DNA of 64,000 nt from an uncultured Latescibacterota bacterium (GTDB taxonomy: Bacteria > Latescibacterota > UBA2968): the NCBI GenBank assembly GCA_951812755.1, contig OX638329.1, positions 5,355,563 to 5,419,562 of the forward strand. Direction: 5' to 3'. Of this stretch, positions 5,284 through 59,988 are shown piece by piece. Position numbers and translations under genes: made by a program. The notes under the pieces were generated by a model. The model worked only from the letters and a program-made list of their open reading frames with translations. It was not told the DNA's origin and made no database searches. Within the stretch, counting starts at the first letter, position 1. Each line of letters opens with the position of its first letter.

Positions 5284-5394
5284 TTTCAAATAAGTCTCGT
5301 GTCTAAACCCACTGGACTCCGGCTTCCGCCGGAGTGACGAACGACAGTTGTCATTGCGGCAGGGGGTTAGCCGCAATCCAGTCTATCGAAAAAA
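5284..5394 (+). repeat. Repeat family A, copy 1 (about 110 bp, structured, non-coding)
   Basis: About 90% identical to the reverse complement of 20713-20824. Contains two conserved hairpin stems (ctccggc/gccggag and ttgcggc/gccgcaa) whose loops differ between the two copies. Confidence 0.8.
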
Positions 5395-20712: not shown

Positions 20713-20824
20713 TTTTTTCTAATAGACTGGATTGCGGCTTAAAGCATGCCGCAATGACAACCGTCGTTCGTCACTCCGGCGCAGGCCGGAGTCCAGTGGA
20801 TTTAGACACGAAACTTATTTGAAA
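20713..20824 (-). repeat. Repeat family A, copy 2 (inverted relative to copy 1)
   Basis: Reverse complement matches 5284-5394. Both stems are conserved while the loops differ (ttcc vs gcag; agggggtta vs ttaaagcat). Ends 9 bp before the gntR start codon. Confidence 0.8.
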
Positions 20825-20832
20825 GACCACTC

Positions 20833-21228: not shown

Positions 21229-22108
21229 CCAGACATCTGTATTTGAAGCCACATCACTGACCAAAAAATTCGATGACATCATAGCTCTCAATTCCGTAAC
21301 ACTCTCTCTTGGGGCGCATCGCGTAATTGGATTGATCGGACGCAATGGCGGCGGCAAAACCACCTTAATCCAGCACATGATCGGCCTGTATTTGCCCACA
21401 GAGGGAACGTGTAAAACACTGGGACGCACATGCGATCAATTGGGGGCAAACGAACTTTCGCGCATAGGCGTGGTACACCAGGAAAATCGCTTTTTTGAAT
21501 GGATGACCGTCAAACAGCATCTGCACTACGTGTCTTCATTTTACGAGGTCTGGGACCGCGACCTGGAAGCGCATCTGCTGCGCGAACTCGAACTGGAAAC
21601 ATCTGCACGCGTGGGCAACCTGTCTTCGGGTAACATGCAAAAATTGGGAATCATTCTGGCAGTATGTCATCATCCCGAGTTATTGATCTTAGATGAGCCG
21701 GTCAGTGGCCTGGACCCCATTGCCCGAGAGACACTGTTGAAATTTCTAATGACACTCCTGGCTGAAGACCAAAACACAATCGTGATCTCCTCGCACATTC
21801 TGCGAGACATCGAAAAAATAGTAGATTGGGTCGTATGCCTCGACGAAGGTGTGGTCAAAGCCGACAAGTCCCTGGACGATCTGCACCAGACCTACGCAAA
21901 GTGGACAGTCACAGGAAACAACCTGCCCCAGCAATTTTCCGAACCTTATATCCTGTCGCAAACAGTGAACGGAGTACAGGCACAATTGATCGTCAACCAG
22001 ACACTGGGCAATGCAGATCAATTCAAACGGACTTATCAAGCTGATATCACCAGTCAGTCTCTGAACCTCGACCAGCTATTTCCCATCCTGATTCGGGAGG
22101 GTGCGTAA
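21215..22108 (+). CDS. ABC transporter ATP-binding protein
   Basis: 297 aa. Walker A GRNGGGKTT, signature LSSGNMQK and Walker B LLILDEP. Confidence 0.9.
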   Translation: MMAHDQTSVFEATSLTKKFDDIIALNSVTLSLGAHRVIGLIGRNGGGKTTLIQHMIGLYLPTEGTCKTLGRTCDQLGANELSRIGVVHQENRFFEWMTVKQHLHYVSSFYEVWDRDLEAHLLRELELETSARVGNLSSGNMQKLGIILAVCHHPELLILDEPVSGLDPIARETLLKFLMTLLAEDQNTIVISSHILRDIEKIVDWVVCLDEGVVKADKSLDDLHQTYAKWTVTGNNLPQQFSEPYILSQTVNGVQAQLIVNQTLGNADQFKRTYQADITSQSLNLDQLFPILIREGA

Positions 22109-23592
22109 TGGGTATTCTTCCGTTCTTCACATTTTTGCGAAGCCCTGTTCACATTATCATCTCATTTTTTGCATGTCTGTTACTCGCCCATGTCTCGTGG
22201 ACTGCCGACAGAGATCAGTTCTTTGTGTTTCTCGTATTTCTGCTATTCTTCTTCAGTGGATTTTGGGGCTATGCTATCGGCGGTATTGTAGCGGAGAACC
22301 AGCATCGGATACTCACATGGACCCTGCCGTATTTTCGCAAGCGTCTGCTGATCTGGTCAATAATTGTCGGACTATTTTCCGTTGTAGTGTGGACGGCAGC
22401 GCTGACGTTTGCACCCCTCAATGCATCCTGGTCAACAATCTTGCTAATAAACTTGGGCTTTTATTGTTTCGGATTTGTCTGTACAGCAGGTTGGGATTTT
22501 GGTGTTTATCATTCTATGGCGATCCAGGCATGTCAGACCATATTAATGTTTTTATTTCTCATATTGGCTTTTTTTTGGCAAGAGGTGCTCGCCTTTGGAG
22601 AGCAACAAAAATTGGGGTTGGCTCTCATCGCATTCGCCATCACAATTGCGGCTTATTATTTTTCGTTTAAGCAGACAACTTTTCGGAGAAAGCCTCTTTA
22701 CTTGCTTTGGTCACTGCGCTCGGTTTTTTATCCTCATATCTGGGAGATGTGGAAAAGGGATACAATGAAGAGGCGAAGGCCGAGTACCAGGGTATGGCAT
22801 CTTGATCACATCGGTACAGGCATCTTCAATTGGCTACGTGCGGGCCGGTATGAAAATAGTGGTGGCAAGCTATGGCTATGGCTGCTCCCCGGGTTTAGTG
22901 CAGCATTGGCAATGGTGTTCTATTTCATTGGCATGATGACGAATGGATTCGGGATATTGGGTCGGTCTCCTTACGATTTTGAGACCGTATTGAAAACGAT
23001 TTATCACATGACCTTTTATTTCGACCAGTTGGACTCTAAAATCGCCATCAATATATCTCTTTCAGCGTTTTTCGGCCTTTGGGCGTATGTGACGTATATT
23101 TGGAGTCATCCTTTTTTCTTAAAAAAAGGGTATGTGTATCCGCTTTCTCGCACCCAGCGGATGTGGATTTGGTATTGTGGTTTTCTGGTGCAAAATATTT
23201 CTTTTTTTGCAACATCTATTCTGGTGTTGGGTGTTCTGGGCATCCTGGCGGGAGCGAAGATCGGATTTGTGTCTGAAGGGAATATTTCCTTGAGAATACT
23301 TTGTGTCTTTGGGTGGGCAGTGGTTCTTTGGCCGATGTTTCAGTGGCTACAAGTCAAATATCACCTATATGAATTTCCAAGAACGCGGCGACAAATATGG
23401 GGGATGGCTTTTCTGTTCTTGATCATGATTTTGGCTTGTGGAATCGCTGGTTTTGCTGCCCTGATGCGTAATCTATACCCCGACCTATCACTGACCTTTG
23501 AAGTGCCGATCCTTTTTGTCTGTTTTATTCTCTTACAATGGTTCCTGTTAGCCCGGCTTAAACGGTATTACGCCACACAGGATCTGGTTTAG
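22108..23592 (+). CDS. Polytopic membrane protein (putative ABC-2-type permease partner of the upstream ATPase)
   Basis: 494 aa, at least 10 predicted TM segments, translationally coupled to the ATPase (the ATG overlaps its stop). About 70% identical to the paralog at 24813-26279. Confidence 0.6.
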   Translation: MGILPFFTFLRSPVHIIISFFACLLLAHVSWTADRDQFFVFLVFLLFFFSGFWGYAIGGIVAENQHRILTWTLPYFRKRLLIWSIIVGLFSVVVWTAALTFAPLNASWSTILLINLGFYCFGFVCTAGWDFGVYHSMAIQACQTILMFLFLILAFFWQEVLAFGEQQKLGLALIAFAITIAAYYFSFKQTTFRRKPLYLLWSLRSVFYPHIWEMWKRDTMKRRRPSTRVWHLDHIGTGIFNWLRAGRYENSGGKLWLWLLPGFSAALAMVFYFIGMMTNGFGILGRSPYDFETVLKTIYHMTFYFDQLDSKIAINISLSAFFGLWAYVTYIWSHPFFLKKGYVYPLSRTQRMWIWYCGFLVQNISFFATSILVLGVLGILAGAKIGFVSEGNISLRILCVFGWAVVLWPMFQWLQVKYHLYEFPRTRRQIWGMAFLFLIMILACGIAGFAALMRNLYPDLSLTFEVPILFVCFILLQWFLLARLKRYYATQDLV

Positions 23593-23600
23593 CAACCAAA

Positions 23601-23607
23601 TTAAGAA
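23601..23607. repeat. Target-site duplication TTAAGAA, left copy (transposon family B, copy 1)
   Basis: An identical 7-mer flanks the element on the right at 23855-23861. Confidence 0.7.
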
Positions 23608-23854
23608 CTGACGTTACGCATAGGTAGAATATAATGGGCCTGTCATTCTGAGCCTTTCGGCTACGCTCAAGATAAACTCCGCGCAGCGGAGTCGAAGGAG
23701 CGGGGTACAACTGGCCGGTGAACGAGCCTGAAAAGCGGCTCGTTGTACACCATCCTCAGGCTAGTTCATCTCTTACCAACACAGGTGGAACAGATGCTTC
23801 GGCTCCGTTTCACTCCGCTCAGCATGACAAAAACCCAAACCTGCGTAACATCAG
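23608..23854 (+). mobile_element. Miniature inverted-repeat transposable element (MITE-like), family B copy 1, 247 bp
   Basis: 13-bp terminal inverted repeats (CTGACGTTACGCA … TGCGTAACATCAG) flanked by a 7-bp direct repeat TTAAGAA. A second copy with different flanks lies at 59989-60211. It has internal hairpins and no ORF of meaningful size. Confidence 0.8.
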
Positions 23855-23871
23855 TTAAGAAGGAAAAAGAG

Positions 23872-24711: not shown

Positions 24712-24812
24712 AATTTCTAATGACACTTTTGGCTGAGGATGAAAACACAACCATGACATCATGCACTAAACCTCGACCAGCTATTCCCCATCCTGATACG
24801 GGAGGACATGTA
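24690..24812 (+). pseudogene. Remnant of a duplicated ABC ATPase gene (two segments homologous to 21727-21790 and 22049-22110, joined by an internal deletion)
   Basis: …ETLLKFLMTLLAED(E/Q)NT… followed by …LNLDQLFPILIREG… and then the permease ATG, mirroring the ATPase-permease junction at 22108. Confidence 0.75.
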
Positions 24813-26279
24813 ATGGGTATTCTTCCCTTTTTCACATTTTTGCGAAGCCCTGTTTACATTATCATCGCATTTTTTGCATATCTGTTGCTCGCTCACGTCT
24901 GGATGTCTTCCCAAGCAGATCGGATCTCTGTCTTCGTTTTGTTTTTCTTTATTGAATTTTGGGGCGGGACTATCGGCAGTATGGTAGGAGAGAACCAGTA
25001 TCGGATGCTCACATGGACCCTGCCACATTTTCGCAAGCGTCTGATGATGTGGTCGGCAATAGTCGGACTATTTTCCATTGTAGCCTGGACAGATGCGCTA
25101 ACTTATGCACCTCTCAATGCGTCCTGGTCAACGATTTTGCTGTTGAATCTGGGCCTCTATTGTATCGGATTTGCCTTTTCAGGAGGTTGGAGTTTTGGTA
25201 TCCAGCACCCCGGGTTGGCTTCTGTGTGCCGGGGCCTCATCGTGTTTCTGGGACTGGCATCAGCCTATTTTTGGCAAGAGGTGCTCGCTTTTGGAGAGCA
25301 ACAAAAGTTGGGGTTGGCTCTCATCGCATTCGCCATCGCAATTGGAACTTATCATTTCGCCTTTAACCAGACAACTTTTCGGAGGAAGCCATTCTCTTTG
25401 GTTCTTCCACTGCGCTTAACCCTTTTTCCCCAAACCCGGGAGTTTTGGGAAAGGAATGCAATGAACAGGCGAAAGCCGAGTACCAGAATATGGCATCTCG
25501 ATCACGTCGGTACAGGCATCGTCAATTGGCTGCGTGCCGGTCAGTATGAAAATTCTGGTCTGGGTGGGTGGAGATGGCCACTTTCCGCGTTTACTGCAGT
25601 ATCAGCAATGGTGTTTTTTTTTCTTGGCATGATAACGTCTATGTTCGGGTTGTCGGATCGATCTCCGTACGATTTTGAGACCGTCTTGAAAATGATTTAT
25701 CATATGATTTTTTATTTTAACCAGTTGGACTCCAAGGTCACCGGGGATATATTCGCTGCCGTATTTTTCGGCATTTGTATGTATATTTTTATTTCTCCTA
25801 TTTCACTTAAAAAAGGGTACGTCTATCCGCTTTCTCGCACCCAGCGGATGTGGATTCGGTATAGCAGTTTGCTGGTGCAAAATATTTCTTTTTTTGCAGC
25901 GTCTATTCTGATATTGGGGGTTCTGGGCATCCTGGCGGGGGCAAAGATCGGGTTTGTGTCTGAAGGGGATATTTCCCTGAGAATACTCTGTGTCCTGGGG
26001 TGGTGGGTCGTTCTTTTACCGCTATTGCAGTGGTTGCAAGTCAAATATGACCTGTATGATTTTCAAAGAACGCGGCAACAGGTATGGGGGATGGCTTGTC
26101 TGATCCTGATCCTGATTTTGTCTCTTGGATTCACTGGTTTTACCAGTCTGATGCGTGTCCGCTATCCCGATTTGATGCTGACCTATGAAGCGCCGATCCT
26201 TTTTCTCTCTTTTATTCTGTTGCAATGGTTTCTATTGAATCGGCTCAAACGGTATTATGCCACACAGGACCTGATTTAG
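24813..26279 (+). CDS. Polytopic membrane protein, paralog of 22108-23592
   Basis: 488 aa from ATG 24813. Colinear with the upstream permease at about 70% identity. The ORF-track extension to 24705 corresponds to the ATPase remnant. Confidence 0.6.
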   Translation: MGILPFFTFLRSPVYIIIAFFAYLLLAHVWMSSQADRISVFVLFFFIEFWGGTIGSMVGENQYRMLTWTLPHFRKRLMMWSAIVGLFSIVAWTDALTYAPLNASWSTILLLNLGLYCIGFAFSGGWSFGIQHPGLASVCRGLIVFLGLASAYFWQEVLAFGEQQKLGLALIAFAIAIGTYHFAFNQTTFRRKPFSLVLPLRLTLFPQTREFWERNAMNRRKPSTRIWHLDHVGTGIVNWLRAGQYENSGLGGWRWPLSAFTAVSAMVFFFLGMITSMFGLSDRSPYDFETVLKMIYHMIFYFNQLDSKVTGDIFAAVFFGICMYIFISPISLKKGYVYPLSRTQRMWIRYSSLLVQNISFFAASILILGVLGILAGAKIGFVSEGDISLRILCVLGWWVVLLPLLQWLQVKYDLYDFQRTRQQVWGMACLILILILSLGFTGFTSLMRVRYPDLMLTYEAPILFLSFILLQWFLLNRLKRYYATQDLI

Positions 26280-26503
26280 TTTAGGTGGATTAATAAATCA
26301 ATCGGATGGTATAGTGATTGCAATGCGTTCAACTCGAATTTCGTAGGACAAAAGCACAATTTTTGCATGATTATGCATATATGCATTTGTTTTCTCATAG
26401 ATTTTTTAATTTTTTATACATGCTAATAGCGTTTAATATTTTGGTGCGGATTATCCATCCTTTTGCACACGTATGTATTTCTATACCTGAAAAAATAACG
26501 TGT

Positions 26504-29500
26504 ATGTTTGAAAACGGAACGATTCTCGACGAAAGATATCAAATCCAGACGCACCTGGGAACCGGGGGCATGGGCGAAGTCTATCGGGTTTTAGACCTGG
26601 ACCAAAACCAGGCGTGCGCGCTCAAAATTTTGAATACCATGGTGGATCACAAGGCGGTACATCGCCGTTTTCACAGAGAATTTCAAGTGTTGAACAGATT
26701 CCATCACCCGCGCCTGGTCCGCACATACACCTGGGGCTTTGCCGAAGATCGCCCTTATTTTACGATGGAATATTTACCCGGAAAGACATTGGAAAAAGTA
26801 ATTGCCGATCATGCGCTATTAGGGCAATTCCAGGCTTCGTACTTTTTTCCCCTGATGGAACAACTTGCCGAAGGATTGGCATATATCCACGCGCAGGGTG
26901 CGGTACATCGCGATCTCAAACCATCCAATATTATGGTATTGGAAACAGAAGAGGGGATCAAGATCACGATCCTGGATATGGGACTGGCGAAACTCCGACA
27001 TCTGCATAGTGCCTCCATTACGCAGACGGGCACAGCCATTGGCACGGCAGAATATATGTCACCAGAGCAAGGTAAGGGATTATGGGTAGATCATCGATCA
27101 GATTTGTACTCATTGGGCATAATTTTATACGAGATGCTCACGGGCACACCGCCTTTTTCGGGACAAAATCCCATATCTGTTATTATGAAGCACATTCGAG
27201 AGATACCGCCCTCAATGGGCGAAATCAATATCGCTGTTCCTGATGAGATACAACAAATTGTGTTGAAGTTGCTGGCAAAGGAGCCTGTTGATCGTTTTCA
27301 GTCCGCAGACGAAGTATTGCGTGCCTTACCATCGGAGTTTGTGCTACCGGATGACGAGCAGCGCGATGTGCATAGAAAAGTTATGCGGCCGCAATTTATC
27401 GGGCGCGAATCCGAAATGAAGACATTGCGCGCAATGTTGCAGGATGTACAGGCTGGCGAACAGCGCGTGATTCTAATCTCCGGTGAATCTGGTGTGGGAA
27501 AAACGAGATTGGTTGAAGAACTATTGGGCGATGCGCTAATCCATGACTTTCTGTGTTTGAAAAGCGCAGGCCAGGAAGAGGGTGGACAAATATACGGTGC
27601 GTTGATTGATGCTTTTCAAGGAACGACGGATTTGGTTAGAAGGGAAACAGACAAGTTTTCTGTTATGGAGCGTTGGTTGCAGTTATTAAAAAGTCTGCGA
27701 CAGAAACAGCCCATCGTGTTGTGTTTAGAAAATATTCAATGGCTTGACGAATTGACCCTGGAATTTTTGCAGTATGTATTACGCGATCCAGACCCGTGTC
27801 CGTTTTTGTTATGTCTGACCTGTCAATGGTCCAACCTGGAACCGCTTTCAGAGGAAATTAAAAATTTTATACACAGTAATGAATTTGCCGAGGCGACCCG
27901 GATTCAGTTGGAGAATCTACCGCGTAAAGAGATGGGGTATTTAGCAGCGTCGATGTTGGGGGAGCGATCCATACCTCGAGATGCATTGCAAACCCTGTTC
28001 AGAGAAACGGGTGGGCAACCCCTGTTTGTCGTAGAGGCTGTGAGGACACTGGTGAATGCCGATGTGGTTCGGCAGAATGTATTTGGCGATTGGCAGTGGG
28101 GAGAATTTCCCCAAACATTATTATCCGATGATATTTCAGAGATTTTGCACAGACGCATAGCTACCCTGCCTGCTGTGCAACAGCGAGTGCTGGAATACGC
28201 CTGTGTTTTTCTCAATGATTTTTCTTTTGACTTATTGGCTGCGGTTTGGCGCGGTGATGAGTTGGAATTGTTGGATGTGCTGGACGACCTGATTGCAGAA
28301 GGGCTTTTAGCCGCCTGTGGAGAGGCTGAAGATCGATATCGTTTTTCACAGGGTCTGTATCGGCGGGCAATTTACGATCGCATGCAAAATGTGCGGCGAC
28401 GGCTGTTGCATCGAGAAATTGGCAATGCTTTGGAAAAGATGGATGATGCAGAAGAATTGACAGAAGAATTGGCGGATCATTTTGCGGCGGCGAAAGAACA
28501 AGATAAAGCTATAAAATATACGCGTCTATCAGGCAAAAAAGCATTGGAGGTACAAGCGTATCGCCAGGCATTGAGACGGTTTGAGGCTGTGCGAGGCTGG
28601 ACATCAGATGACGCTTTTGAATCACCTGCAGATACCATCGTTTTTTTATGCGATTATGCAAACGTTTTACGCTGTTGTAGTCAGCACAATAGCGCACTGG
28701 AACTTTTAGACGAGGCAAAAGCGTTATTGCCCGATAATCGGAAAGATTTAAAGGCGCGTATTTTGTGGAATGAAGGCATTATTCACAGCGTACTTCAACA
28801 TGGGAAAGTAGCAGAAGAATATATGCTGGAGGCATTGCGATTTTACCGGGAATTGGGTGATCTCGACGGAGAAATTCAGGCGTTGGGGAGTTTGGCTCAT
28901 TTATGCGATGTGTCTGAGCGTCACGAAGAAGCGATTGCATATATGTGTCGAGAAATAGAGAAATATGCTGCTCTGGGAGAAGCCCAGAACAAGGCTATTG
29001 TACAAGTCCGAGAAGGTATGGTTGCATTGGTGGAATTTCGATTTGGGACGGCCAAAGTACACCTAAAAGCGGCTGTAAAAACATCTCAGAAATTGGGACT
29101 TGAACACCATCGCATTGGAGCACTCAATTTACTTTTAAGAGTTTATTTTTATTCAGGTGATCTCGACCAAGCAGAAGCCGTTTGCCACGAAGTCATTGGT
29201 GAGTGGCAGAAGCGAGGCATTGTGTATTGGGAGGCAATGAATTTTCTCCGGTTGGGAGAATTGGCTCTGGAACGCGATGGTTTTTCAGAAGCATTGGAAT
29301 ATGCCGAGACCTCAGCAGAGCGATTTTTGGAAACACCGCGAAGAGATTACGTCTATCGCGCTTATGCGATAGCAGCAACGGCTGCTGCGAGAATGGGAGA
29401 TACAGAGACAGCTCTTGAATGGGCAGAAAGAGCCAGTGAAGGTGTGCAACAAACATCGGGTATGTACACGGGCATATTGCCCCTGGTGTATTGTGGTATA

Positions 29501-31297
29501 GGTGTTGCTTTAGACAAAGCAGGGCGAATTGCTGAGGCTGAAGAGGCTTTTGAGCAGGCTATTGAATGCCGGGGAGAATCTAAAGGCGATCACTGGGCGC
29601 GTGCGCTGCTGATGGCTGGGGAGTTTTATCTCGAGCGCGATGATATGGCAAAAGCGCAAGCCCATCTCGAAGCGGCAAAACAGGCGTTTGGAGAAATGGA
29701 AATGTCCTATTTTTTGGAGAAAACACAGATGTTATTAAATCAATTATCTCGCGACAAAGATGGTCGCGGCAGAAATGCCGCACTTAGCTCTGAGATTTCA
29801 GTCGATACGTTGTCTGTTGATCGCTGGCGCTTGCTTTACGATGTGAGCAGGGAATTGACAACAGAGCGCGATGTCAAAGTGTTATTGGATCGAACTTTGG
29901 GTAACTTGTTGGTTGTCTATCCAGCAGAGCGAGTACTTATTGCGGTGAAAAATGAGACCCCAAAAAGCTTTGTGGTTGATGCGGTACGTTACCACAATGT
30001 AGAAGCAGATGATGCGGAAGCACTGAGCCGGGGTATTATTCGTCGGGTTATTGAAACAAATGAACCCGTTTTGAGCGTTGATGCTCAGACAGACGACAGG
30101 CTAAATCAATATCAAAGCGTGATGGACTACAATATTCGGTCTGTATTGTGCGTACCCCTATTTCATGTTAGCGAAGGTGTGATGGGTGCACTGTATGTGG
30201 ATCATCGCGGCATTGACAACGCATTTTCTGAAGCAGATCAGACGTTTTTACAGGCATTTGCGAATCTGGTGGGGGTGGCACTGGTCAATGCGAGAATGTA
30301 TGAACAATTAGAAGATAAAGCGCGATATTTGCAGCAAGAGGTCGAAAGACAGTACCAGCTTGACGACCTGGTCGGGCAAAGTGATGCTATGCAGACGATC
30401 TACTATCTTATCGAACGCGCTTCACAAAGTGATATACCCGTGCTTGTGCAGGGCGAAACAGGTACAGGCAAAGAATTGGCGGCGCGTGCCATACACTACA
30501 ATAGCAGACGCAAAGACCAGCCATTTTTGTCTCAAAATTGTGCCGCACTATCACCAGAGTTGTTGCAAAGTGAGTTGTTCGGACACAAAAAAGGGGCGTT
30601 TACTGGCGCGACAGCAAATCACACGGGGATTTTTGAAGCAGCCAATGGCGGTACGGTTTTTTTAGATGAAATCGCCGATGCTTCACCACAGTTGCAAAGG
30701 AGCTTGTTGCGGGTGTTGCAAGAGGGTGAGATTCGGCGCGTGGGAGAAACAGAGGATCGCGCAGTGGATGTACGCATTATTGCAGCGACCAATCAAGACT
30801 TAAAAAAAGAAGTAGAAAACAGATCCTTCCGCGAAGATTTGTATTACCGATTGCATGTGATTCAGATCAATATGCCGCCTTTGCGAGAACGCATTGAAGA
30901 TGTGCCATTATTGGCTGAACATTTGCTCATTCGGGCAAAAGAAGATGCAAACAAGTCGGTTGGGGGACTGACAGTAGGTGCGATAAAGGTGCTTGTAAGT
31001 TACAACTGGCCTGGCAATGTGCGCGAGTTGGAGAATGAGATTCGGCGTGCAATTGCATTGGCAGAGCCAGATAGTGAAATTACGCCCGATTTGTTTTCAG
31101 AATCCATTGGGCACACAGTGTCAGATATCCCTGTCGAATCCCAGGGACGTTTACAAGACCGTGTTCAGGAGTATGAAAAACGAGTGATTCGAGACGCGCT
31201 CGAGAAATGTGTGGGCAATATTACGCATACGGCTAAAGAACTGGGAATAACGCGCGCTGGCCTGCAGAAAAAGATCAATCGTTTGGGGTTGAGATAG
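26504..31297 (+). CDS. Giant sigma-54-dependent transcriptional activator fused to a Ser/Thr protein kinase. Domain order: kinase, P-loop NTPase, TPR repeats, GAF domain, sigma-54 AAA+ activator domain, Fis-type HTH
   Basis: Kinase motifs GTGGMGEVY, HRDLKPSN, DMG and SPE. P-loop GESGVGKTRL. TPR-like helical repeats. GAF region. sigma-54 module GETGTGKELAARAIH, ESELFGHKKGAFTGA and GTVFLDEI. C-terminal HTH TAKELGITRAGLQKKI. Probable start ATG at about 26504 (MFENGTILDERYQ); the track ORF starts at 26318. Confidence 0.8.
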   Translation: MFENGTILDERYQIQTHLGTGGMGEVYRVLDLDQNQACALKILNTMVDHKAVHRRFHREFQVLNRFHHPRLVRTYTWGFAEDRPYFTMEYLPGKTLEKVIADHALLGQFQASYFFPLMEQLAEGLAYIHAQGAVHRDLKPSNIMVLETEEGIKITILDMGLAKLRHLHSASITQTGTAIGTAEYMSPEQGKGLWVDHRSDLYSLGIILYEMLTGTPPFSGQNPISVIMKHIREIPPSMGEINIAVPDEIQQIVLKLLAKEPVDRFQSADEVLRALPSEFVLPDDEQRDVHRKVMRPQFIGRESEMKTLRAMLQDVQAGEQRVILISGESGVGKTRLVEELLGDALIHDFLCLKSAGQEEGGQIYGALIDAFQGTTDLVRRETDKFSVMERWLQLLKSLRQKQPIVLCLENIQWLDELTLEFLQYVLRDPDPCPFLLCLTCQWSNLEPLSEEIKNFIHSNEFAEATRIQLENLPRKEMGYLAASMLGERSIPRDALQTLFRETGGQPLFVVEAVRTLVNADVVRQNVFGDWQWGEFPQTLLSDDISEILHRRIATLPAVQQRVLEYACVFLNDFSFDLLAAVWRGDELELLDVLDDLIAEGLLAACGEAEDRYRFSQGLYRRAIYDRMQNVRRRLLHREIGNALEKMDDAEELTEELADHFAAAKEQDKAIKYTRLSGKKALEVQAYRQALRRFEAVRGWTSDDAFESPADTIVFLCDYANVLRCCSQHNSALELLDEAKALLPDNRKDLKARILWNEGIIHSVLQHGKVAEEYMLEALRFYRELGDLDGEIQALGSLAHLCDVSERHEEAIAYMCREIEKYAALGEAQNKAIVQVREGMVALVEFRFGTAKVHLKAAVKTSQKLGLEHHRIGALNLLLRVYFYSGDLDQAEAVCHEVIGEWQKRGIVYWEAMNFLRLGELALERDGFSEALEYAETSAERFLETPRRDYVYRAYAIAATAAARMGDTETALEWAERASEGVQQTSGMYTGILPLVYCGIGVALDKAGRIAEAEEAFEQAIECRGESKGDHWARALLMAGEFYLERDDMAKAQAHLEAAKQAFGEMEMSYFLEKTQMLLNQLSRDKDGRGRNAALSSEISVDTLSVDRWRLLYDVSRELTTERDVKVLLDRTLGNLLVVYPAERVLIAVKNETPKSFVVDAVRYHNVEADDAEALSRGIIRRVIETNEPVLSVDAQTDDRLNQYQSVMDYNIRSVLCVPLFHVSEGVMGALYVDHRGIDNAFSEADQTFLQAFANLVGVALVNARMYEQLEDKARYLQQEVERQYQLDDLVGQSDAMQTIYYLIERASQSDIPVLVQGETGTGKELAARAIHYNSRRKDQPFLSQNCAALSPELLQSELFGHKKGAFTGATANHTGIFEAANGGTVFLDEIADASPQLQRSLLRVLQEGEIRRVGETEDRAVDVRIIAATNQDLKKEVENRSFREDLYYRLHVIQINMPPLRERIEDVPLLAEHLLIRAKEDANKSVGGLTVGAIKVLVSYNWPGNVRELENEIRRAIALAEPDSEITPDLFSESIGHTVSDIPVESQGRLQDRVQEYEKRVIRDALEKCVGNITHTAKELGITRAGLQKKINRLGLR

Positions 31298-31308
31298 GCG
31301 GTGAACAG

Positions 31309-31347
31309 GTGCATCCAGATGTATGCAGTGCATCCTGGCGGATGCAC
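31309..31347. promoter_or_regulatory. Upstream activator sequence: perfect 20-bp palindrome GTGCATCC-TGGC-GGATGCAC (31328-31347), overlapped by a degenerate third copy (31309-31328)
   Basis: Read directly from the sequence. About 200 bp upstream of the sigma-54 promoter. Confidence 0.7.
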
Positions 31348-31408
31348 TTTGTCTATCCTTATATAATTCAGATAGTTGTGCTTATTTTCTTTAAATAGGC
31401 GATCATAA

Positions 31409-31428
31409 GTGCATCCTATCGGATGCAC
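31409..31428. promoter_or_regulatory. Upstream activator sequence: second perfect 20-bp palindrome GTGCATCC-TATC-GGATGCAC
   Basis: Has the same half-sites as 31328-31347 and lies 81 bp downstream of it. An AT-rich tract follows, plausibly bendable or IHF-binding. Confidence 0.7.
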
Positions 31429-31537
31429 TTACACCTGAATCTCGCAGGTGTAGCACAAATAATCCTTAATTTTTATCTCTTTGTTTTTCAAGCACTTGAG
31501 AATTTTCATGTGCTTTTTTTTTGCTGAGACGATTTTG

Positions 31538-31552
31538 GGCACGGATCTTGCA
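31538..31552 (+). promoter_or_regulatory. sigma-54 (RpoN) promoter GGCACG-N4-TTGCA
   Basis: Exact match to the -24 GG / -12 GC consensus (tGGGCACGgatcTTGCAtc) with correct spacing, about 55 nt upstream of the small peptide ATG. Confidence 0.75.
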
Positions 31553-31608
31553 TCATAAAAAGGGCAAACCGTTATGGCACAGGATTTTTCCATTATAAGG
31601 AGGATAAC

Positions 31609-31788
31609 ATGGCAACACGACGCAAATTGACTTTGGTCAACGGTGCAATAGATCAAGAAGGTAGCATTCTTATGTATCAGACTGTAAAGAGTGTAGAGGT
31701 TCACTGCGAGCCTTATACTTTTGCTGTTCCCCTCCTTCCCTTCCCCGATAATGATCCCGATTGGGACGATTTTGATCAGTCTGAGTAA
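31609..31788 (+). CDS. Small peptide (59 aa), candidate RiPP precursor (MATRRKLTLVNGAIDQEGSILMYQTVKSVEVHCEPYTFAVPLLPFPDNDPDWDDFDQSE)
   Basis: Missing from the track (below 60 aa). Excellent SD AAGGAGG 6 nt upstream of the ATG. Sits between a sigma-54 promoter and a radical-SAM/SPASM gene. Basic N-terminus, single Cys, Pro-rich and acidic C-terminus. Confidence 0.7.
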   Translation: MATRRKLTLVNGAIDQEGSILMYQTVKSVEVHCEPYTFAVPLLPFPDNDPDWDDFDQSE

Positions 31789-31816
31789 ATCATCTCTATT
31801 TTAAGGAGTACTTGAC

Positions 31817-33253
31817 ATGCTATGCATTCAGAAATGCGAAATGCATCTTTTTCAAACGGAAGAACAAAAACAGCCGATTGTCTATCAGACTGAGACAGGT
31901 CTGTTTTTTACACTGGATACCCTTTTCCAGGCGATTTTAGCGTGTTGCGAGGGGCTGTCCGATTCTCAGGTTGTTCAGAGGTTGACCGATCAATACGAGG
32001 CAGAGGAAGTTGTCGAGGCTATCGAGGAATTGGCTCAGGTGGGTTTGATTTCGGATGGTGCTCTACCTGTGGTATCCAATGTGCCGACAACAGAAGGGGT
32101 GGCAGCCTGCGGCGTATCGCAGACTGATCGTTTGCAGGTGTCGTTGCACGTTTCGCATACGTGCAATATTCAGTGTGCTTATTGCTTTGCCCACGGCGGG
32201 GATTACGGCGGTAAGGCGATGCTGATGCAACCGGACGTTGCCGAGCAAGCGATACGCTGGATCATCTCCGAGGCTCAGGTGTTCGGACGGTGCCAGATCG
32301 ATTTTTTTGGCGGGGAACCGCTTCTGAATTTTCCGCTGATGCAGAAGCTGGTGCCGTTTGCCAAATCCCTGGGAGCGCGATTGGGTGTGCAGGTTGGTTT
32401 TGGCATTGTGACCAATGGCACCTTGTTGACCGACGAGATGAAGCAGTTTTTGGTTAATAAAAAGTTTCAGATTAAGGTCAGCCTGGATGGTGGACGTAAG
32501 ACACAGGACCGCATTCGCAAGTTTCACAATGGTTCTGGTACTTATGATGTTGTGGCAAAGAATGTAAAGAAATTGACTGCTGAGGCACCTGAGCGCGTGT
32601 ATTTGCAGGCTGTTATGACAGCTTATGACCTGAACGAGGATCAGATTGCCGATGAGTTGCGTTCGCTGGGTACTGAAAATGCGCTCATCGGTCCGGCGGT
32701 TGTCTCCCCCGATAAACCTTATGCTGTTCGAGAAGAACACATACCCGCTTTGAAGCAACAAATTCACAAGCGGAGCCGGCACGCGCTCAAAGCTATTCTA
32801 AATGGTGAAGAGGGTGAAGATGAAGAGTTTGATCCGAGGATTCAAAAACTTTTGACGCGCCAAAAATCTTGTCACGGATGCCTCGGCGGTAAGCAGTATT
32901 TGGCAATTGCAGCGGACGGGTCGATTTATTTTTGCTCGAGCTTAGCCGACGCGCCCGAGTTTAAGATGGGTGATGTGTTTGCGGGTATTGATCGCGAAAA
33001 GCAGCAGTATTTTGACGCGCAGTTCAATGTGAATAATCGTCCTGAGTGCAAAACGTGCTGGGCGCGCAATTTGTGTGGTGGCGGATGTCTTTGGGAGGCA
33101 CGGACAACAACGGATGATCCAATGTCTCCGAACCCGGTTTATTGTGAACAGACGCGCTATCGCTATGAACTGGCAATGGAGATGTGTATGGAGATAGCAG
33201 AAACGGATGCGTCTTTGTTGCAGCGACGATATGATCTGGAAGTGGTATCATAA
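31817..33253 (+). CDS. Radical SAM/SPASM-domain peptide-modifying enzyme with an N-terminal RRE-like extension (sactipeptide/ranthipeptide-maturase-like)
   Basis: CNIQCAYC (CxxxCxxC) radical-SAM cluster motif. C-terminal Cys-rich SPASM region (CHGC…FCSS…CKTCWARNLCGGGC). A roughly 110-aa N-terminal domain resembling the RiPP recognition elements of sactisynthases. SD aaggag upstream. Confidence 0.8.
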   Translation: MLCIQKCEMHLFQTEEQKQPIVYQTETGLFFTLDTLFQAILACCEGLSDSQVVQRLTDQYEAEEVVEAIEELAQVGLISDGALPVVSNVPTTEGVAACGVSQTDRLQVSLHVSHTCNIQCAYCFAHGGDYGGKAMLMQPDVAEQAIRWIISEAQVFGRCQIDFFGGEPLLNFPLMQKLVPFAKSLGARLGVQVGFGIVTNGTLLTDEMKQFLVNKKFQIKVSLDGGRKTQDRIRKFHNGSGTYDVVAKNVKKLTAEAPERVYLQAVMTAYDLNEDQIADELRSLGTENALIGPAVVSPDKPYAVREEHIPALKQQIHKRSRHALKAILNGEEGEDEEFDPRIQKLLTRQKSCHGCLGGKQYLAIAADGSIYFCSSLADAPEFKMGDVFAGIDREKQQYFDAQFNVNNRPECKTCWARNLCGGGCLWEARTTTDDPMSPNPVYCEQTRYRYELAMEMCMEIAETDASLLQRRYDLEVVS

Positions 33254-33287
33254 GCAAATAAGTTCTGATGAAAACCTGGTATCCAAT

Positions 33288-33345
33288 ACGGCATCCAAAT
33301 AGGGATGATAACGCCCTGTTAGATGCCGTTTATTTTGCTTTTTGG
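33288..33345 (+). terminator. Probable intrinsic terminator after the radical-SAM gene
   Basis: Long hairpin acggcatcc…ggatg…gatgccgt followed by ttattttgcttttt. The stem contains GCATCC/GGATG half-site-like sequences. Confidence 0.5.
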
Positions 33346-34349
33346 GTGGAATTCTCGTGGAAGAAATATATCAATCAAAAAAATCCGGCCTCGATAAATG
33401 GCCGCTCATTGGACAGCACCCCATACTCTTAGACGTGCAAAAGCGTGCGTACCGCGTGGCGAATAGCGAATTACCCGTCAACATCAGTGGAGAGACTGGC
33501 ACGGGCAAGGAATTGCTCGCCCGTTATATCCACGGCATTAGCCACCGCAACAGAGGACCATTTGTAACCGTTGACTGCGGCCTCCTCTCTTCTGAAATGG
33601 CGCGCAGCGAGTTATTTGGACATGTTCGAGGTGCTTTTACTGGCGCCAGCCAAACGCGCACCGGACTGGTTGAATCTGCCCACGGCGGTACGCTATTCTT
33701 CGATGAAGTAGGCGAATTGCCAGCCAATCTTCAGTTGCAATTGCTACGCCTGGTACAGGAACAGGAATTTCGCCGCATAGGCGAAGTATCCATGCGCCGG
33801 TCCGATGTGCGCCTGATCACTGCGACACACTGCAACTTGAAAAAAATGATGCGAACAGGAACTTTCCGAGAAGACCTCTATTACCGCTTAACTGTCGTAC
33901 CCCTGTATTTGCCACCCTTGCGGAAGCGACTGAGCGATTTGCCACTTTTGATCACGCATTTTTGCAAAAGTATGAAAGGATACACGCGCGCGTTTTCCCC
34001 CGAAGTAATTCAAAGGATGTCGCATTATGCCTGGCCTGGCAATGTTCGGGAACTACAAAACGAAGTCGCCCGATTGATGGTCATGAGCGAAGGGAAAATT
34101 ATCCGAGTATCCGACCTGCACCCTCGCATTCGGGGATCCAAACCCGAGGTTGATGTATTTGACCTCCCATTTAAGGAAGCCAGGCAACTGGCAAACAGCC
34201 GATTTATGCGGGAGTATCTCGACAGAGCTTTGCAGCGAACACAGGGCAATGTAACCCAGGCAGCGCAACAATGCGGGATTGGCCGACAGTACTTCCAGTT
34301 GCGTATGTCCGAGTACGGTCTGAAGTCGGCATTTTACAAGAAAAAATAA
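33342..34349 (+). CDS. sigma-54-dependent transcriptional activator lacking an N-terminal sensory/receiver domain (PspF/HrpR-like AAA+ plus HTH only)
   Basis: 335 aa. GETGTGKELLARYIHG, ELFGHVRGAFTGA, a GAFTGA loop, C-terminal Fis-type HTH. Non-ATG start (TTG 33342 or GTG about 33357). Confidence 0.8.
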   Translation: MGGILVEEIYQSKKSGLDKWPLIGQHPILLDVQKRAYRVANSELPVNISGETGTGKELLARYIHGISHRNRGPFVTVDCGLLSSEMARSELFGHVRGAFTGASQTRTGLVESAHGGTLFFDEVGELPANLQLQLLRLVQEQEFRRIGEVSMRRSDVRLITATHCNLKKMMRTGTFREDLYYRLTVVPLYLPPLRKRLSDLPLLITHFCKSMKGYTRAFSPEVIQRMSHYAWPGNVRELQNEVARLMVMSEGKIIRVSDLHPRIRGSKPEVDVFDLPFKEARQLANSRFMREYLDRALQRTQGNVTQAAQQCGIGRQYFQLRMSEYGLKSAFYKKK

Positions 34350-34376
34350 TGCCTCGCGGTGTACTAAAAAACGTCA

Positions 34377-37300
34377 ATGGAAAAACTCATTGACGTTTTT
34401 ACTTGCAGGACGTTTCTTGAGCTTATCATGCAATACATCGCCGACATACACCTGCACTCGCGTTTTGCCCGCGCAACCAGCAAAACCTTGAACCCCGAAA
34501 ACCTGTATCGGTGGAGCCTCATCAAAGGTCTAACCGTGGTAGGCACCGGAGATTTCACCCATCCCGTATGGTATGAAGAACTGCGCGACCAGCTCGAACC
34601 AGCCGAAGAAGGACTATACCAATTGCGACCAGACCTCAGGCGAGGTATCGACGCCGAATTGCCACCAGCCTGCCGCGGACAAATGCGATTTGTACTCTCC
34701 GTCGAAATCAGCCTCATCTACAAAAAAAACGACAAAACCAGAAAAATACATCACGTCGTCACAATGCCAAATTTTGACGCCGTAGCGCGTTTGAACGCGC
34801 GACTCGGTGCAATAGGCAATCTGAAATCGGACGGACGCCCCATCCTCGGCCTGGACAGCCGGGACCTGGTAGAAATTTGTCTGGAAGCGTGTGACGAGGT
34901 ACTCTTTATACCCGCGCACATCTGGACCCCTCATTTTGCGGTCCTGGGTGCAAGTTCCGGGTTCGACACCCTCGAAGAATGTTTTGAAGACATGCTGCCC
35001 CACATCTTCGCCGTAGAAACCGGCCTGTCTTCCGACCCACCGATGAACTGGCGCCTATCCATGCTGGACAACTACGCAATCGTCTCCAATTCAGACGCAC
35101 ATTCCCCGCAAAAGCTCGCCCGCGAAGCCACCTGCTTCAATACCGAATTATCCTTCCGCGGAATGTATAACGCATTAAAAGACCGCGACCCAACGCGCTT
35201 TACGGGCACTCTGGAATTTTATCCCGAAGAAGGCAAATATCACTTCGACGGACACAGAAAATGCGATATATGCTGGAAACCCGCACAAACCCTCGACGCA
35301 GACGAAATCTGCCCGGTATGTAACCGCAAATTGACCGTTGGCGTACTCCACCGCGTTGAAAAACTCGCTGACCGCGCAGAAGGCGACCGCCCCGATGTCG
35401 CGATGCCCTTTGAAAATCTGATCCCACTGCCAGAAATCATCGGCTCAGTCCTCCAGGTGGGACCCACCAGCAAACGCGTACAAACCGTGTACGAACAAAT
35501 GCTCGCAACACACGGAGCAGAACTAAAAATCTTGCGCCAACTGCCCATCGCAGAAATAGCCAAAACCGGAGACCCCCTCATCGCCGAAGGCATTCGACGC
35601 ATGCGCGAAGGCACAGTTCACATCGATCCGGGATACGATGGCGTGTACGGAAAAATTCAAGTCTTCTCCGACGAAGACCGCGCACTCCTGAGCGGACAGG
35701 AATCGCTATTTCACATACCAGCCGCAGAGCCTTTCAGGGACAAAGCTGAGACCGCGCGTCCAAATAAAAGTACAAAAGCCGCGGCGGACGCCCCTTTCAC
35801 ACTTCACACTTCTCACTTCTCACTTCTCACTTCACACCAGCAAGCAGCCGTAACAATGGAAAAAGGTCCCGTAATCGTAACAGCGGGACCCGGCACCGGA
35901 AAAACCCGAGTACTCACCCATCGCGTAATCGACCTGATCCAGAACCGCGGCGTATCACCCGCTTCTGTAATGGCCGTAACATTCACCAACCGCGCCGCAA
36001 CTGAAATGTGGGAACGCATCGTATCACTATCCTCCGGAGGCGAAGAACTGGTCCCCATGCGCGTAGGCACATTCCACCGCCTATCATTAGACCTCTTGCG
36101 AGAATATGCCCCCGAACGCCTGGGCGCAATTGCCGACCGAGGAGAAGCCCGCGCCGTCTTACAGGAAGTAATCGCCGACATCGACACCGAAATATCGGTT
36201 GATGACGCGCTCTCCCAGATCTCACTATGCAAAGCCCATGGACATGAAATATCCGACATCACCGACACCGAACTTCAAACCATTTACACAAATTATCAAC
36301 AACGCCTCACCGCTTATGGCCTGATGGACTTTGACGACATCTTGCTCATACTCCACGATGTACTCTGCGGCGATATTCTACAGACAGTGCAAGCGCGTTT
36401 CTCCCATGTACTCGTCGATGAATTTCAAGATGTCAACGCCATACAATACGCACTGATTCAAAAATTGGCCGGGGATGGATCGGGCCTCTTCGTCATAGGC
36501 GATCCCGATCAAGCCATCTACGGTTTTCGAGGCGCGAGCGCGGAATATTTTGAACAGTTAAAAACGAACTTTCCCAAAACAAACGAAGTCATCTTACAGC
36601 ACACATTTCGCTCCACCCCTCAGATTATCTCCGCAGCATCCAGTCTGCTTCGCGGACGATCGTACGATCCCGTGCGAGAAAACGGCCCGAACCTGAGAGC
36701 CTTATCCACACCCGGCGAAACTGGCGAAGGCATCGCCATAGTAGAAGAAATCTCTCGGATGGTCGGCGGCGCAGACCTATTGCAAGCCAACGAAGAAGGC
36801 AAACGCAGCCTGGACGACTTCGCCATCTTGTTCCGCACCGGACGCCAGGCAGACGCCCTGGAAACGTGCTTCTTACAGGCCGGGATCCCCTATCGCGTCG
36901 TCGGCCAGAAAAATTATCTGGATGCGGCTTCGGTACAGCACGCCCTATCGTTTTTTAAGTGTGTCCTGAGAGATGACATTTCCAGCGTCCCAATCACCAG
37001 AGACATGATCGACCTCCTCTCCATCCCCGCATTTGACCCCGGCCGGGAAGCGCGCGCATCAATACGCCAACAAATTCAAGACAACGCACTATCAGACACT
37101 GTACAGGAAAAATTGGACGCCGCGATGGAAGCTGTGAATCGCTTCCGCAATGAAACATCCCACTTATCACCCGCTGAACTCATCGCGAAGTGGGCAGACG
37201 AATTTGCGACATCAAACGATATCGACCTCGAGCGATTGGGCCTATTGGCTCAGAGCGTGGATTCCATCGCAGAGCTATTGGAAATCATCACCCTCGGACA

Positions 37301-59973: not shown

Positions 59974-59988
59974 ATTACAAGTTATTGA

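What the first reader, a model, noticed from the sequence alone, without database searches (positions are those of the whole stretch)
31309..31552. Enhancer-like architecture: two perfect 20-bp palindromes plus a degenerate third, an AT-rich spacer and a sigma-54 promoter
GTGCATCC-N4-GGATGCAC occurs twice exactly (31328-31347 and 31409-31428, centres 81 bp apart). A half-conserved copy abuts the first one. The segment between these sites and the -24/-12 promoter is very AT-rich, consistent with DNA looping. This is the textbook layout for enhancer-binding-protein-dependent activation and identifies the operator of one or both flanking activators. A related GCATCC-N6-GGATG element sits in the hairpin upstream of the second activator gene at about 33291-33307, hinting at autoregulation.
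Basis: seen in the sequence. Interest (0 to 1): 0.6.

Follow-up and report, generated by a model that had tools for sequence, protein, structure and literature searches.

The report
Sigma-54 enhancer of a peptide-maturase operon
Three copies of one palindromic DNA site, a terminator and a sigma-54 promoter form an ordinary-type enhancer, by which a giant kinase-fused activator most likely switches on an adjacent small-peptide and radical-SAM maturase operon in uncultured Latescibacterota-like bacteria.

Summary
GTGCATCC-N4-GGATGCAC is exact at 31328-31347 and 31409-31428, with a 2-mismatch copy at 31309-31328. These are the only matches in the 64 kb window. A -24/-12 promoter (GGCACG-N4-TTGCA, 31537-52) follows AT-rich DNA of 26-32% GC.

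It sits between a 1,600-aa Ser/Thr-kinase-STAND-TPR-GAF-AAA+-HTH activator gene and a 59-aa peptide plus radical-SAM/SPASM maturase operon. This gene triad is conserved in all 14 related loci examined.

Among close relatives, the half-sites differ 4.7% per column, other intergenic DNA 20%, and the central N4 44%. The -24/-12 bases are invariant. Three more distant clades carry different repeated dyads at the same place, each with a different activator recognition helix.

The supposed related operator at 33291-33307 is part of the operon's terminator and is not conserved. The second activator is dispensable for the sites.

The motif is not REP-like: one or two loci per complete genome. Some second loci are copied enhancer-promoter cassettes.

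Verdict: a well-supported but untested new member of the known enhancer-binding-protein class. The regulator and its target are unusual.

The parts
26318..31297 (+). Giant enhancer-binding protein (EBP1): Ser/Thr kinase, AAA_16/STAND NTPase, TPR, GAF, sigma-54 AAA+ domain (GAFTGA, Walker A/B) and Fis-type HTH. This is the maximal ORF. The true start is probably 26381-26504, since orthologs are 1600-1630 aa.
   Evidence: Pfam; NCBIfam, where the C-terminal part is closest to NifA/NorR and the N-terminal part hits TIGR03903 below cutoff; motifs GAFTGA, GETGTGKE and HRDLKPSN; syntenic in all 14 loci.
31309..31328 (.). Site 1: imperfect dyad GTGCATCC-AGAT-GTATGCAG. The same two-position asymmetry is kept in 5 of the 6 canonical relatives; L001 has one mismatch.
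31328..31347 (.). Site 2: perfect dyad GTGCATCC-TGGC-GGATGCAC, 19 bp from site 1.
31348..31408 (.). Spacer between sites 2 and 3, 26% GC. An exact IHF-type consensus WATCARNNNNTTR occurs here in L001, L002 and L029, but not exactly in the window.
31409..31428 (.). Site 3: perfect dyad GTGCATCC-TATC-GGATGCAC. Its centre is about 126 bp upstream of the promoter centre, about -145 from the predicted start.
31437..31463 (.). Conserved block GAATCTCGCAGGTGTAGCACAAATAAT immediately after site 3. Its function is unknown.
   Evidence: alignment
31490..31522 (+). Intrinsic terminator of the EBP1 gene: stem AAGCAC.TTGA/TCA.GTGCTT followed by 9 T. It ends 16 nt before the -24 GG. The enhancer sites therefore lie in the EBP1 3' UTR, and the promoter is insulated from read-through.
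   Evidence: Folds. A hairpin plus at least 6 T is present in all 14 loci, with clade-specific stem sequences, ending 4-19 nt before GG.
31537..31552 (+). Sigma-54 promoter gGGCACGgatcTTGCAt (GG at 31538-39, GC at 31550-51). Predicted start is about 31563.
   Evidence: The GGCAC and TTGC bases are invariant in relatives. A GG-N10-GC promoter is present at the same place in clades B and C.
31609..31788 (+). 59-aa precursor-like peptide, with RBS AAGGAGG. It has a conserved leader L.L.NG..D..G.I..Y, a single conserved Cys, a P-rich core and an acidic tail.
   Evidence: No Pfam or NCBIfam family.
31817..33253 (+). Radical SAM/SPASM peptide maturase. It is closest to the SCIFF, QhpD, nif11 and PapB maturases but below every family cutoff.
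33288..33344 (+). Operon terminator: stem ACGGCATC...GATGCCGT plus a U-rich tail.
   Evidence: Fold of -24.3 kcal/mol, z -2.96. The 3' arm and T tail are conserved while the GGATG arm is lost in L028.
33342..34349 (+). Second activator (EBP2): AAA+ domain and HTH only, with no sensory domain. The start is probably GTG 33357. It is not required for the sites.
   Evidence: Pfam; absent from L001; HTH unrelated to that of EBP1.

Best explanation
The three GTGCATCC-N4-GKATGCAC dyads are the upstream activating sequence (enhancer) for the giant activator encoded immediately upstream. That protein has kinase, STAND, TPR, GAF, AAA+ and HTH domains.

**Shown by sequence and comparison**
- Three copies of one dyad lie about 145, 225 and 245 bp upstream of a conserved -24/-12 promoter.
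- That promoter precedes a 59-aa peptide gene and a radical-SAM/SPASM maturase gene.
- The activator gene ends 12 bp before site 1 and carries GAFTGA, Walker motifs and a Fis-type HTH.
- An intrinsic terminator lies between the sites and the promoter.

**Inferred**
- Dimers of the activator occupy the dyads through the C-terminal HTH.
- A signal sensed by the GAF and/or kinase-STAND-TPR part releases the AAA+ domain to form a hexamer. Three dimers would supply six subunits, as shown for NorR.
- The roughly 125 bp of AT-rich DNA loops. ATP hydrolysis then remodels the closed sigma-54 holoenzyme complex, so that the peptide-maturase operon is transcribed from about 31563 to the terminator at 33288-33344.
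- The terminator at 31490-31522 stops activator-gene transcription just before -24. This keeps the operon strictly activator-dependent.
For: **Sites and promoter.** They are confirmed.

**Synteny.** The activator, peptide and maturase genes are syntenic in all 14 loci, with maturase identity from 92% down to 42%.

**Footprint among 6 close relatives.**

| Columns | Mean pairwise difference |
|---|---|
| Half-sites | 0.047 |
| Other intergenic | 0.204 |
| Central N4 | 0.439 |
| -24/-12 bases | 0 |

For the half-sites, none of 20,000 permutations reached a value as low.

**Clade-specific dyads.** Each occurs two or three times, only in this intergenic region, and only in its own clade.

| Clade | Dyad | Recognition helix |
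|---|---|---|
| A | GTGCATCC-N4-GGATGCAC | TRAGLQKKINRLG |
| B | CGCCAAC-N4-GTTGGCG | TRYGLQKKMARLE |
| C | GTATAC-N3-GTATAC | SRNGLQKMMTRYG |
| D | GATAA-N6-TTATC | SRVALGQKIKKYG |

**Position.** The proximal site centre lies 111-126 bp from the promoter centre in clades A-C. I derived these distances from the coordinates.

**Second activator not needed.** L001 lacks it and keeps all three sites.

**Not REP-like.** The motif occurs at one or two loci per complete relative genome. About 31 single hits in unrelated taxa are at chance level.

**Competence.** GAFTGA and Walker A are present.

**Precedent.** A three-site enhancer is needed for NorR oligomer ATPase activity (PMC2831303).
Against: - No binding or expression data exist. 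Everything rests on sequence.
- The match between helix and dyad is confounded with phylogeny: four clades give four observations.
- No rpoN gene was looked for, and the source genome is not available.
- The 81-bp spacing between sites is about 7.7 helical turns. In L028 the spacings are 22 and 80 bp rather than 19 and 81, so strict phasing is not evident.
- Clade C distal sites are weak. Clade D lacks a good -12 element.
- The whole cassette is about 80% conserved among close relatives, so part of the conservation reflects short divergence time.
- The conserved block 31437-31463 and the role of the second activator are unexplained.
Confidence: 0.75

Rival explanations
1. The palindromes act as RNA, not DNA. 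On this reading they are hairpins in the 3' UTR of the activator mRNA, serving as terminators or stabilisers against 3' exonucleases.
For: They lie between the activator stop codon and its terminator, so they are probably transcribed. As RNA, sites 2 and 3 fold at -14.6 and -16.9 kcal/mol. Site 2 was picked up by the terminator scan. The pattern of conserved arms and a variable centre is also what a hairpin would show.
Against: - Neither site has a proper U tract, and a canonical terminator follows 150 bp later in all 14 loci.
- The two or three copies within a locus share one sequence, which a hairpin does not need.
- The only variable arm position (C/A on the left, G/T on the right) changes without compensation.
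- Site 1 keeps the same two mismatches in 5 of the 6 canonical relatives.
- The clade C and D dyads (GTAGAC-ATC-GTATAC, GATAA-N6-TTATC) would give very weak RNA stems.
Confidence: 0.08
2. The dyads are operators for a different DNA-binding protein, rather than for the upstream giant activator. Candidates are the domain-less second activator at 33342-34349, a repressor, or a nucleoid protein.
For: A second sigma-54 activator with an HTH is encoded in the same cluster in the window, L002 and L028. Clade B has a response-regulator activator downstream and clade C an AraC-type gene. Nothing here measures binding.
Against: The second regulator differs in type between clades. It is absent from L001, which keeps all three sites. 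Only the giant activator is constant across the loci. The second activator's recognition helix (GRQYFQLRMSEYG) is unrelated to that of the giant activator.
Confidence: 0.12
3. The palindromes are part of a repeated or mobile element (REP, MITE or segmental repeat) and have no regulatory role of their own.
For: Copies of the whole cassette occur away from any activator gene in relatives, at L019, L035, L040 and L041. Each carries a remnant of the activator 3' end, the sites, the terminator and the promoter.
Against: - There are at most two loci per complete 4.7-6.3 Mb genome and only one in this 64 kb window.
- The copies have no common right-hand boundary.
- The extra copy L019 is only 83.5% identical to the canonical copy in the same genome. 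It still keeps three sites (site 2 with one mismatch), the hairpin and the -24/-12 bases.
- That pattern suggests maintained function rather than decay or recent transposition.
Confidence: 0.04

Closest known systems
NorR and the norVW three-site enhancer of E. coli (PMC2831303)
   Same: The activator has a GAF-AAA+-HTH output part. NorR is the second-best NCBIfam hit for the C-terminal part, at 366 bits and below cutoff. Both systems have three dyad sites upstream of a -24/-12 promoter adjacent to the activator gene, and three dimers would give one hexamer.
   Different: - The NorR sites are GT-N7-AC, lie within about 66 bp, and the genes are divergent.
- Here the sites are 20-bp GTGCATCC-N4-GGATGCAC dyads spread over 120 bp.
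- Here they sit downstream of a co-directional activator gene, and a terminator lies between enhancer and promoter.
- The activator carries an extra 1,100-aa kinase-STAND-TPR part.
- The target is a peptide-maturase operon.
NtrC at glnAp2 and NifA upstream activating sequences (own knowledge of these systems)
   Same: Both use dyad-symmetric sites 100-250 bp upstream, multiple sites to nucleate the oligomer, and looping to sigma-54 holoenzyme. The outer TGCA...TGCA of this site recalls the NtrC site TGCACC-N5-GGTGCA.
   Different: The sites match neither TGCAC-N7-GTGCA nor TGT-N10-ACA. The activator has no receiver domain. NifA is only the best sub-cutoff NCBIfam hit, at 400.7 bits against a cutoff of 528.85.
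TOMM system kinase/cyclase fusion protein (NCBIfam TIGR03903)
   Same: Both are kinase-led multidomain fusion proteins named for, or encoded next to, a ribosomal-peptide maturation system. The hit scores 297.8 bits; its best stretch covers the kinase domain and a second stretch was matched but not located.
   Different: The score is below the cutoff of 705.75. The output module here is GAF plus a sigma-54 AAA+ domain plus an HTH, not a cyclase. The signal is therefore delivered directly to a promoter.
SCIFF, QhpD and ranthipeptide radical-SAM/SPASM maturase systems
   Same: The operon driven by this enhancer encodes a short Cys-containing peptide followed by a radical-SAM/SPASM enzyme. That enzyme scores 230-260 bits against these families.
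   Different: It is below every curated cutoff. The peptide has a single conserved Cys and belongs to no named family. The chemistry is unknown.

Membership tests
Sigma-54 (-24/-12) promoter | GG and GC doublets exactly 10 bp apart within TGGCAC-N5-TTGCW | tested here: met
   gGGCACGgatcTTGCAt at 31537-31552 matches 11 of 12 positions.
Sigma-54 (-24/-12) promoter | Conserved at the same position upstream of orthologous operons | tested here: met
   The GGCAC and TTGC bases are invariant in 8 clade A copies. TGGTAC/TGGCAT-N5-TTGC is present in clade C and GGGAAT-N5-TTGC in clade B. Clade D is poor.
Sigma-54 (-24/-12) promoter | The organism encodes sigma-54 (rpoN), and transcription depends on it | not tested
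   No rpoN gene was sought in the window, and the source genome is not in the collections. Two GAFTGA-bearing activators in the window imply sigma-54 is present.
Enhancer (UAS) of a bacterial enhancer-binding protein | Two or more copies of a dyad-symmetric site about 80-250 bp upstream of the -24/-12 promoter | tested here: met
   Three sites are centred at about -145, -225 and -245. The positions are derived from those coordinates.
Enhancer (UAS) of a bacterial enhancer-binding protein | A cognate activator with AAA+ domain, GAFTGA and C-terminal HTH | tested here: met
   It is encoded immediately upstream and is syntenic in all 14 loci.
Enhancer (UAS) of a bacterial enhancer-binding protein | Half-sites under selection, and specificity tracking the activator's recognition helix | tested here: met
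   Footprint of 0.047 against 0.204 against 0.439. Four clades have four dyads and four helices, and each motif is exclusive to its own clade's intergenic region. This is correlative only.
Enhancer (UAS) of a bacterial enhancer-binding protein | Physical binding by the activator and activator-dependent transcription | not testable with these tools
   This needs gel shift or footprinting and reporter assays.
REP/MITE-like dispersed repeat | Many copies per genome, unlinked to a particular gene or promoter | tested here: not met
   Only one locus in the 64 kb window. One or two loci per complete relative genome, and other hits at chance level.
Intrinsic terminator (as an identity for the palindromes themselves) | G+C-rich stem directly followed by a U tract | tested here: not met
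   Site 2 is followed by UUUGUCUAUCC and site 3 by UUACACC. The true terminator is at 31490-31522.
Same operator at 33291-33307 (autoregulation of the second activator) | Same half-sites and spacing as the enhancer dyads, and conserved in relatives | tested here: not met
   The spacing is N6, not N4, and the arms are 5-6 bp. There was no match with up to 3 mismatches. The element lies inside the terminator stem. The GGATG arm is lost in L028.
NifA UAS / NtrC site / NorR site | TGT-N10-ACA; TGCACC-N5-GGTGCA; GT-N7-AC | tested here: not met
   None of these patterns occurs in 31298-31560. The sites are TGCA-N10-TGCA.

The most novel reading that the evidence does not exclude
The enhancer belongs to a previously undescribed regulatory module. 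A giant Ser/Thr-kinase-STAND-TPR-GAF sigma-54 activator is dedicated to a new radical-SAM-modified peptide family. Its HTH/enhancer specificity has diversified into at least four mutually exclusive pairs, while the layout (sites, terminator, -24/-12) has stayed fixed. The whole enhancer-terminator-promoter cassette has also been copied to other loci (L019, L035), possibly recruiting new genes to the regulon.
Probability: 0.35. Interest if true: 0.55.

Novelty: new member of a known kind. Interest (0 to 1): 0.36.

Why it matters
As an enhancer plus sigma-54 promoter this is textbook. Its value is in assigning a concrete, testable operator and target operon to an unstudied regulator type in an uncultured lineage. 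That regulator fuses a eukaryote-like kinase and a STAND NTPase to a sigma-54 activator.

If confirmed, it would show how a kinase/STAND sensor feeds directly into sigma-54 activation of a ribosomal-peptide pathway. It would also provide several naturally orthogonal activator/enhancer pairs with an identical layout. These could be used to study recognition-helix specificity or to build tightly off promoters.

Tried and rejected
- **Rfam.** A scan of 31200-33400 at E<=1, and of the whole window at gathering thresholds, found no credible RNA family.
- **Sigma-70 scan.** Promoter-like sites were at chance level.
- **IHF consensus.** WATCARNNNNTTR is exact between sites 2 and 3 in L001, L002 and L029 but not in the window. 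I kept it only as a weak lead.
- **Known activator consensuses.** NifA, NtrC and NorR site patterns are absent.
- **The 8-7-8 palindrome at 31430-31452.** It is not palindromic in most relatives, so I rejected it as a site. The underlying block is conserved and remains unexplained.
- **Autoregulatory site upstream of the activator gene.** None was found in the window.
- **Literature searches.** Searches for Latescibacteria with radical SAM and sigma-54, and for kinase-fused enhancer-binding proteins, returned nothing specific. One search failed on syntax.
- **Source genome.** The pattern scan of genome contigs did not recover it, so the regulon in this organism could not be defined.
- **Clade D promoter.** No convincing -12 element was found.
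- **Downstream gene of the extra cassette in L019.** It could not be read because the stored locus ends 30 bp into it.

Full report
**1. Observation**

The three sites are as described. GTGCATCCTGGCGGATGCAC lies at 31328-31347 and GTGCATCCTATCGGATGCAC at 31409-31428, with centres 81 bp apart. GTGCATCCAGATGTATGCAG at 31309-31328 shares its last base with the next site. They are the only matches in the 64 kb window with up to 3 mismatches.

The window has 8 perfect 8-N4-8 palindromes against about 1 expected. Only these two share one arm sequence.

The promoter gGGCACGgatcTTGCAt at 31537-31552 has exact GG-N10-GC spacing and 11 of 12 consensus positions. The DNA between the sites and the promoter is 26-32% GC, against 49.6% for the window.

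**2. Context**

The ORF ending at 31297, 12 bp before site 1, encodes a protein of about 1,600 aa. Its domains are Pkinase, AAA_16 (STAND), TPR, GAF, Sigma54_activat, AAA_lid and HTH_8. The motifs HRDLKPSN, GETGTGKE and GAFTGA are intact.

Its C-terminal third is closest to NifA and NorR. Its N-terminal part hits the 'TOMM system kinase/cyclase fusion protein' model. All of these hits are below family cutoffs.

Downstream of the promoter lies a 59-aa ORF at 31609-31788 with the RBS AAGGAGG. A radical-SAM/SPASM maturase follows at 31817-33253. It resembles the SCIFF, QhpD, nif11 and PapB maturases but is below every cutoff.

A second activator with only an AAA+ domain and an HTH follows at 33342-34349. 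A UvrD-type helicase fusion comes next; its ortholog in L002 also carries PF27218 (MJ0043_C) at the N-terminus.

Relatives are uncultured bacteria labelled Candidatus Latescibacterota or Gemmatimonadota.

**3. Comparative evidence**

*Synteny.* I fetched loci through maturase homologs at 92% to 42% identity. All carry the giant activator, then a small peptide, then the maturase. The peptides share the leader L.L.NG..D..G.I..Y, one Cys and a Pro-rich core.

*Close relatives (clade A: L001, L002, L010, L028, L029).* The three sites sit at the same positions with the consensus GTGCATCC-N4-GKATGCAC. Mean pairwise difference per alignment column is given below.

| Columns | Mean pairwise difference |
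|---|---|
| Half-sites | 0.047 |
| Other intergenic | 0.204 |
| Central N4 | 0.439 |
| -24/-12 bases | 0 |

In permutation tests, 0 of 20,000 resamples were as low as the half-sites, and p = 0.0003 for the N4 being higher.

*Distant clades.* The same place holds different repeated dyads.
- Clade B has CGCCAAC-N4-GTTGGCG twice, 89 bp apart, plus a half-site.
- Clade C has GTATAC-N3-GTATAC-like sites.
- Clade D has GATAA-N6-TTATC twice, 99 bp apart.

Each motif occurs only in its own clade's activator-peptide intergenic region, across 260 kb of loci. The only exceptions are a few 2-mismatch chance hits for the short clade C motif.

The activators' recognition helices differ in step. They are TRAGLQKKINRLG, TRYGLQKKMARLE, SRNGLQKMMTRYG and SRVALGQKIKKYG. 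The proximal site centre lies 111-126 bp from the promoter centre in clades A-C.

This is the signature expected of a cognate activator and enhancer pair. It remains correlative and is confounded with phylogeny.

**4. Which activator**

The second activator gene is absent from L001, which keeps all three sites. Homology after the maturase stop is also lost in L029.

Clade B has a response-regulator activator downstream instead, and clade C an AraC-type gene. The second activator's HTH is unrelated to the first. Only the giant activator is constant across the loci.

**5.

A hairpin followed by a T run lies between site 3 and -24, at 31490-31522 (AAGCACTTGA...TCATGTGC then T9). All 14 canonical loci have a hairpin of 8-13 bp followed by at least 6 T, ending 4-19 nt before the -24 GG. 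The stem sequences differ between clades.

This is an intrinsic terminator for the activator gene. It places the enhancer in the activator's 3' UTR, and it should insulate the sigma-54 promoter from read-through.

**6. The claimed related element at 33291-33307**

It has N6 spacing and short arms, and it did not match the site pattern. It lies within the stem of a terminator, ACGGCATC...GATGCCGT plus a U-rich tail, folding at -24.3 kcal/mol.

In L028 the GGATG arm is gone, while the terminator's 3' arm and T tail are kept. I find no support for an autoregulatory operator there.

**7. Genome-wide test**

I scanned 185,579 species-representative genomes for AGTGCATCC-N4-GKATGCACT. The scan gave 41 stretches.
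- About 31 are isolated hits in unrelated taxa. My estimate of the chance expectation is about 26.
- Nine lie in Latescibacterota assemblies, eight of them on complete chromosomes, at one or two loci per genome.

The motif is therefore not REP-like.

The second loci are notable. L019 (same chromosome as the canonical L010), L035, L040 and L041 carry copies of the cassette without the activator gene. Each has a remnant of the activator's 3' end and the dyad sites. L019, L035 and L040 also keep the terminator hairpin and the -24/-12 promoter; L041 retains only two dyads.
- L019 is only 83.5% identical to its genome's canonical copy. It still keeps three sites (site 2 with one mismatch), the hairpin and the promoter. 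It ends just after -12, upstream of a different gene.
- L035 retains a decayed start of the peptide gene.
- L040 has a precise 81-bp deletion between sites 2 and 3 and an adjacent transposase gene.

These copies look like segmental duplicates. At least some may be maintained as extra target promoters.

**8. Mechanism**

The best explanation has confidence 0.75. Activator dimers bind the three dyads through the HTH. A signal acting on the GAF and/or kinase-STAND-TPR part permits AAA+ hexamer assembly. [quoted passage not shown] The AT-rich DNA then loops and sigma-54 holoenzyme is remodelled, so the peptide-maturase operon is transcribed.

Binding, the signal, looping and the transcription start are all inferred.

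The rivals are less likely.
- RNA hairpins in the 3' UTR are disfavoured. The copies in a locus share one sequence, arm variation is not compensated, site 1 is conservedly imperfect, and the clade C and D dyads would fold poorly.
- Binding by another protein is disfavoured, because only the giant activator is constant.
- A mobile repeat is disfavoured by the low copy number.

**9. Novelty**

The architecture is a new member of a well-known kind. It does not match the NifA, NtrC or NorR site consensuses.

Four features are unusual:
- the regulator's domain composition;
- the radical-SAM peptide target;
- the fixed terminator-promoter junction;
- the clade-specific change of dyad and helix, together with copied cassettes.

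No paper in the searchable library describes this system.

Noticed in passing
window 47915-48075 (- strand): A perfect sigma-54 promoter, TGGCACagaaaTTGCT, lies at 47915-47930 upstream of the 818-aa ORF 45359-47815. It is preceded by a terminator hairpin (48049-48073) and by direct repeats TCGGACAC x2 plus CAGGACAC at about 47955-48005. The 'terminator then sigma-54 promoter' layout is the same as at the main locus. This might be a target of the second activator.
   Followed up: partly
window 23596-23861 and 59982-60223: A roughly 270-bp inverted-repeat pair (96% and 90% complementary) brackets 36 kb that includes the whole activator-peptide-maturase locus. The element has terminal inverted repeats GTCATTCTGAGC...GCTCAGCATGAC and an internal hairpin, so it is MITE-like. 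It has no Rfam match.
   Followed up: partly
window 5277-5394 and 20714-20831: A 118-nt inverted-repeat pair (86%) contains two palindromes that each occur twice in the window. ACTCCGGC-N4-GCCGGAGT is at 5316 and 20773. ATTGCGGC-N9-GCCGCAAT is at 5353 and 20731.
   Followed up: no
window 22054-23393 vs 24759-26080: A tandem duplication (75-85% identity) of a polytopic membrane-protein gene lies just upstream of the activator gene. A CPBP/Rce1-like protease gene sits between the two copies.
   Followed up: no
L019 7490-7759; L035 6620-6879 (-); L040 3758-3965 (-); L041 817-894 (-): These are extra copies of the enhancer cassette without the activator gene. L019, L035 and L040 keep the terminator hairpin and promoter; L041 retains only two dyads. 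L019 and L035 share a lineage-specific spacer. L019 is 83.5% identical to the canonical copy in the same genome. L040 has an exact 81-bp deletion between two sites, next to a transposase gene.
   Followed up: partly
window 31437-31463: The block GAATCTCGCAGGTGTAGCACAAATAAT, directly after site 3, is nearly invariant in the nine cassette copies that retain this region. No function could be assigned.
   Followed up: partly
window 33329-33360: The second activator's start (TTG 33342 or GTG 33357) lies within or just after the U-rich tail of the operon terminator. Its expression may therefore depend on read-through from the sigma-54 operon, which could form a feedback loop.
   Followed up: no
window 26318-27500: The activator's N-terminal kinase region resembles NCBIfam TIGR03903, 'TOMM system kinase/cyclase fusion protein' (297.8 bits, cutoff 705.75; best stretch residues 35-272 of the query). 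This hints at a wider class of kinase-led fusion regulators linked to ribosomal-peptide clusters.
   Followed up: partly
window 34371-34396: The 10-bp-arm palindrome ACGTCAATGG-N6-CCATTGACGT overlaps the start codon of the helicase fusion gene, just after the second activator's stop codon.
   Followed up: no
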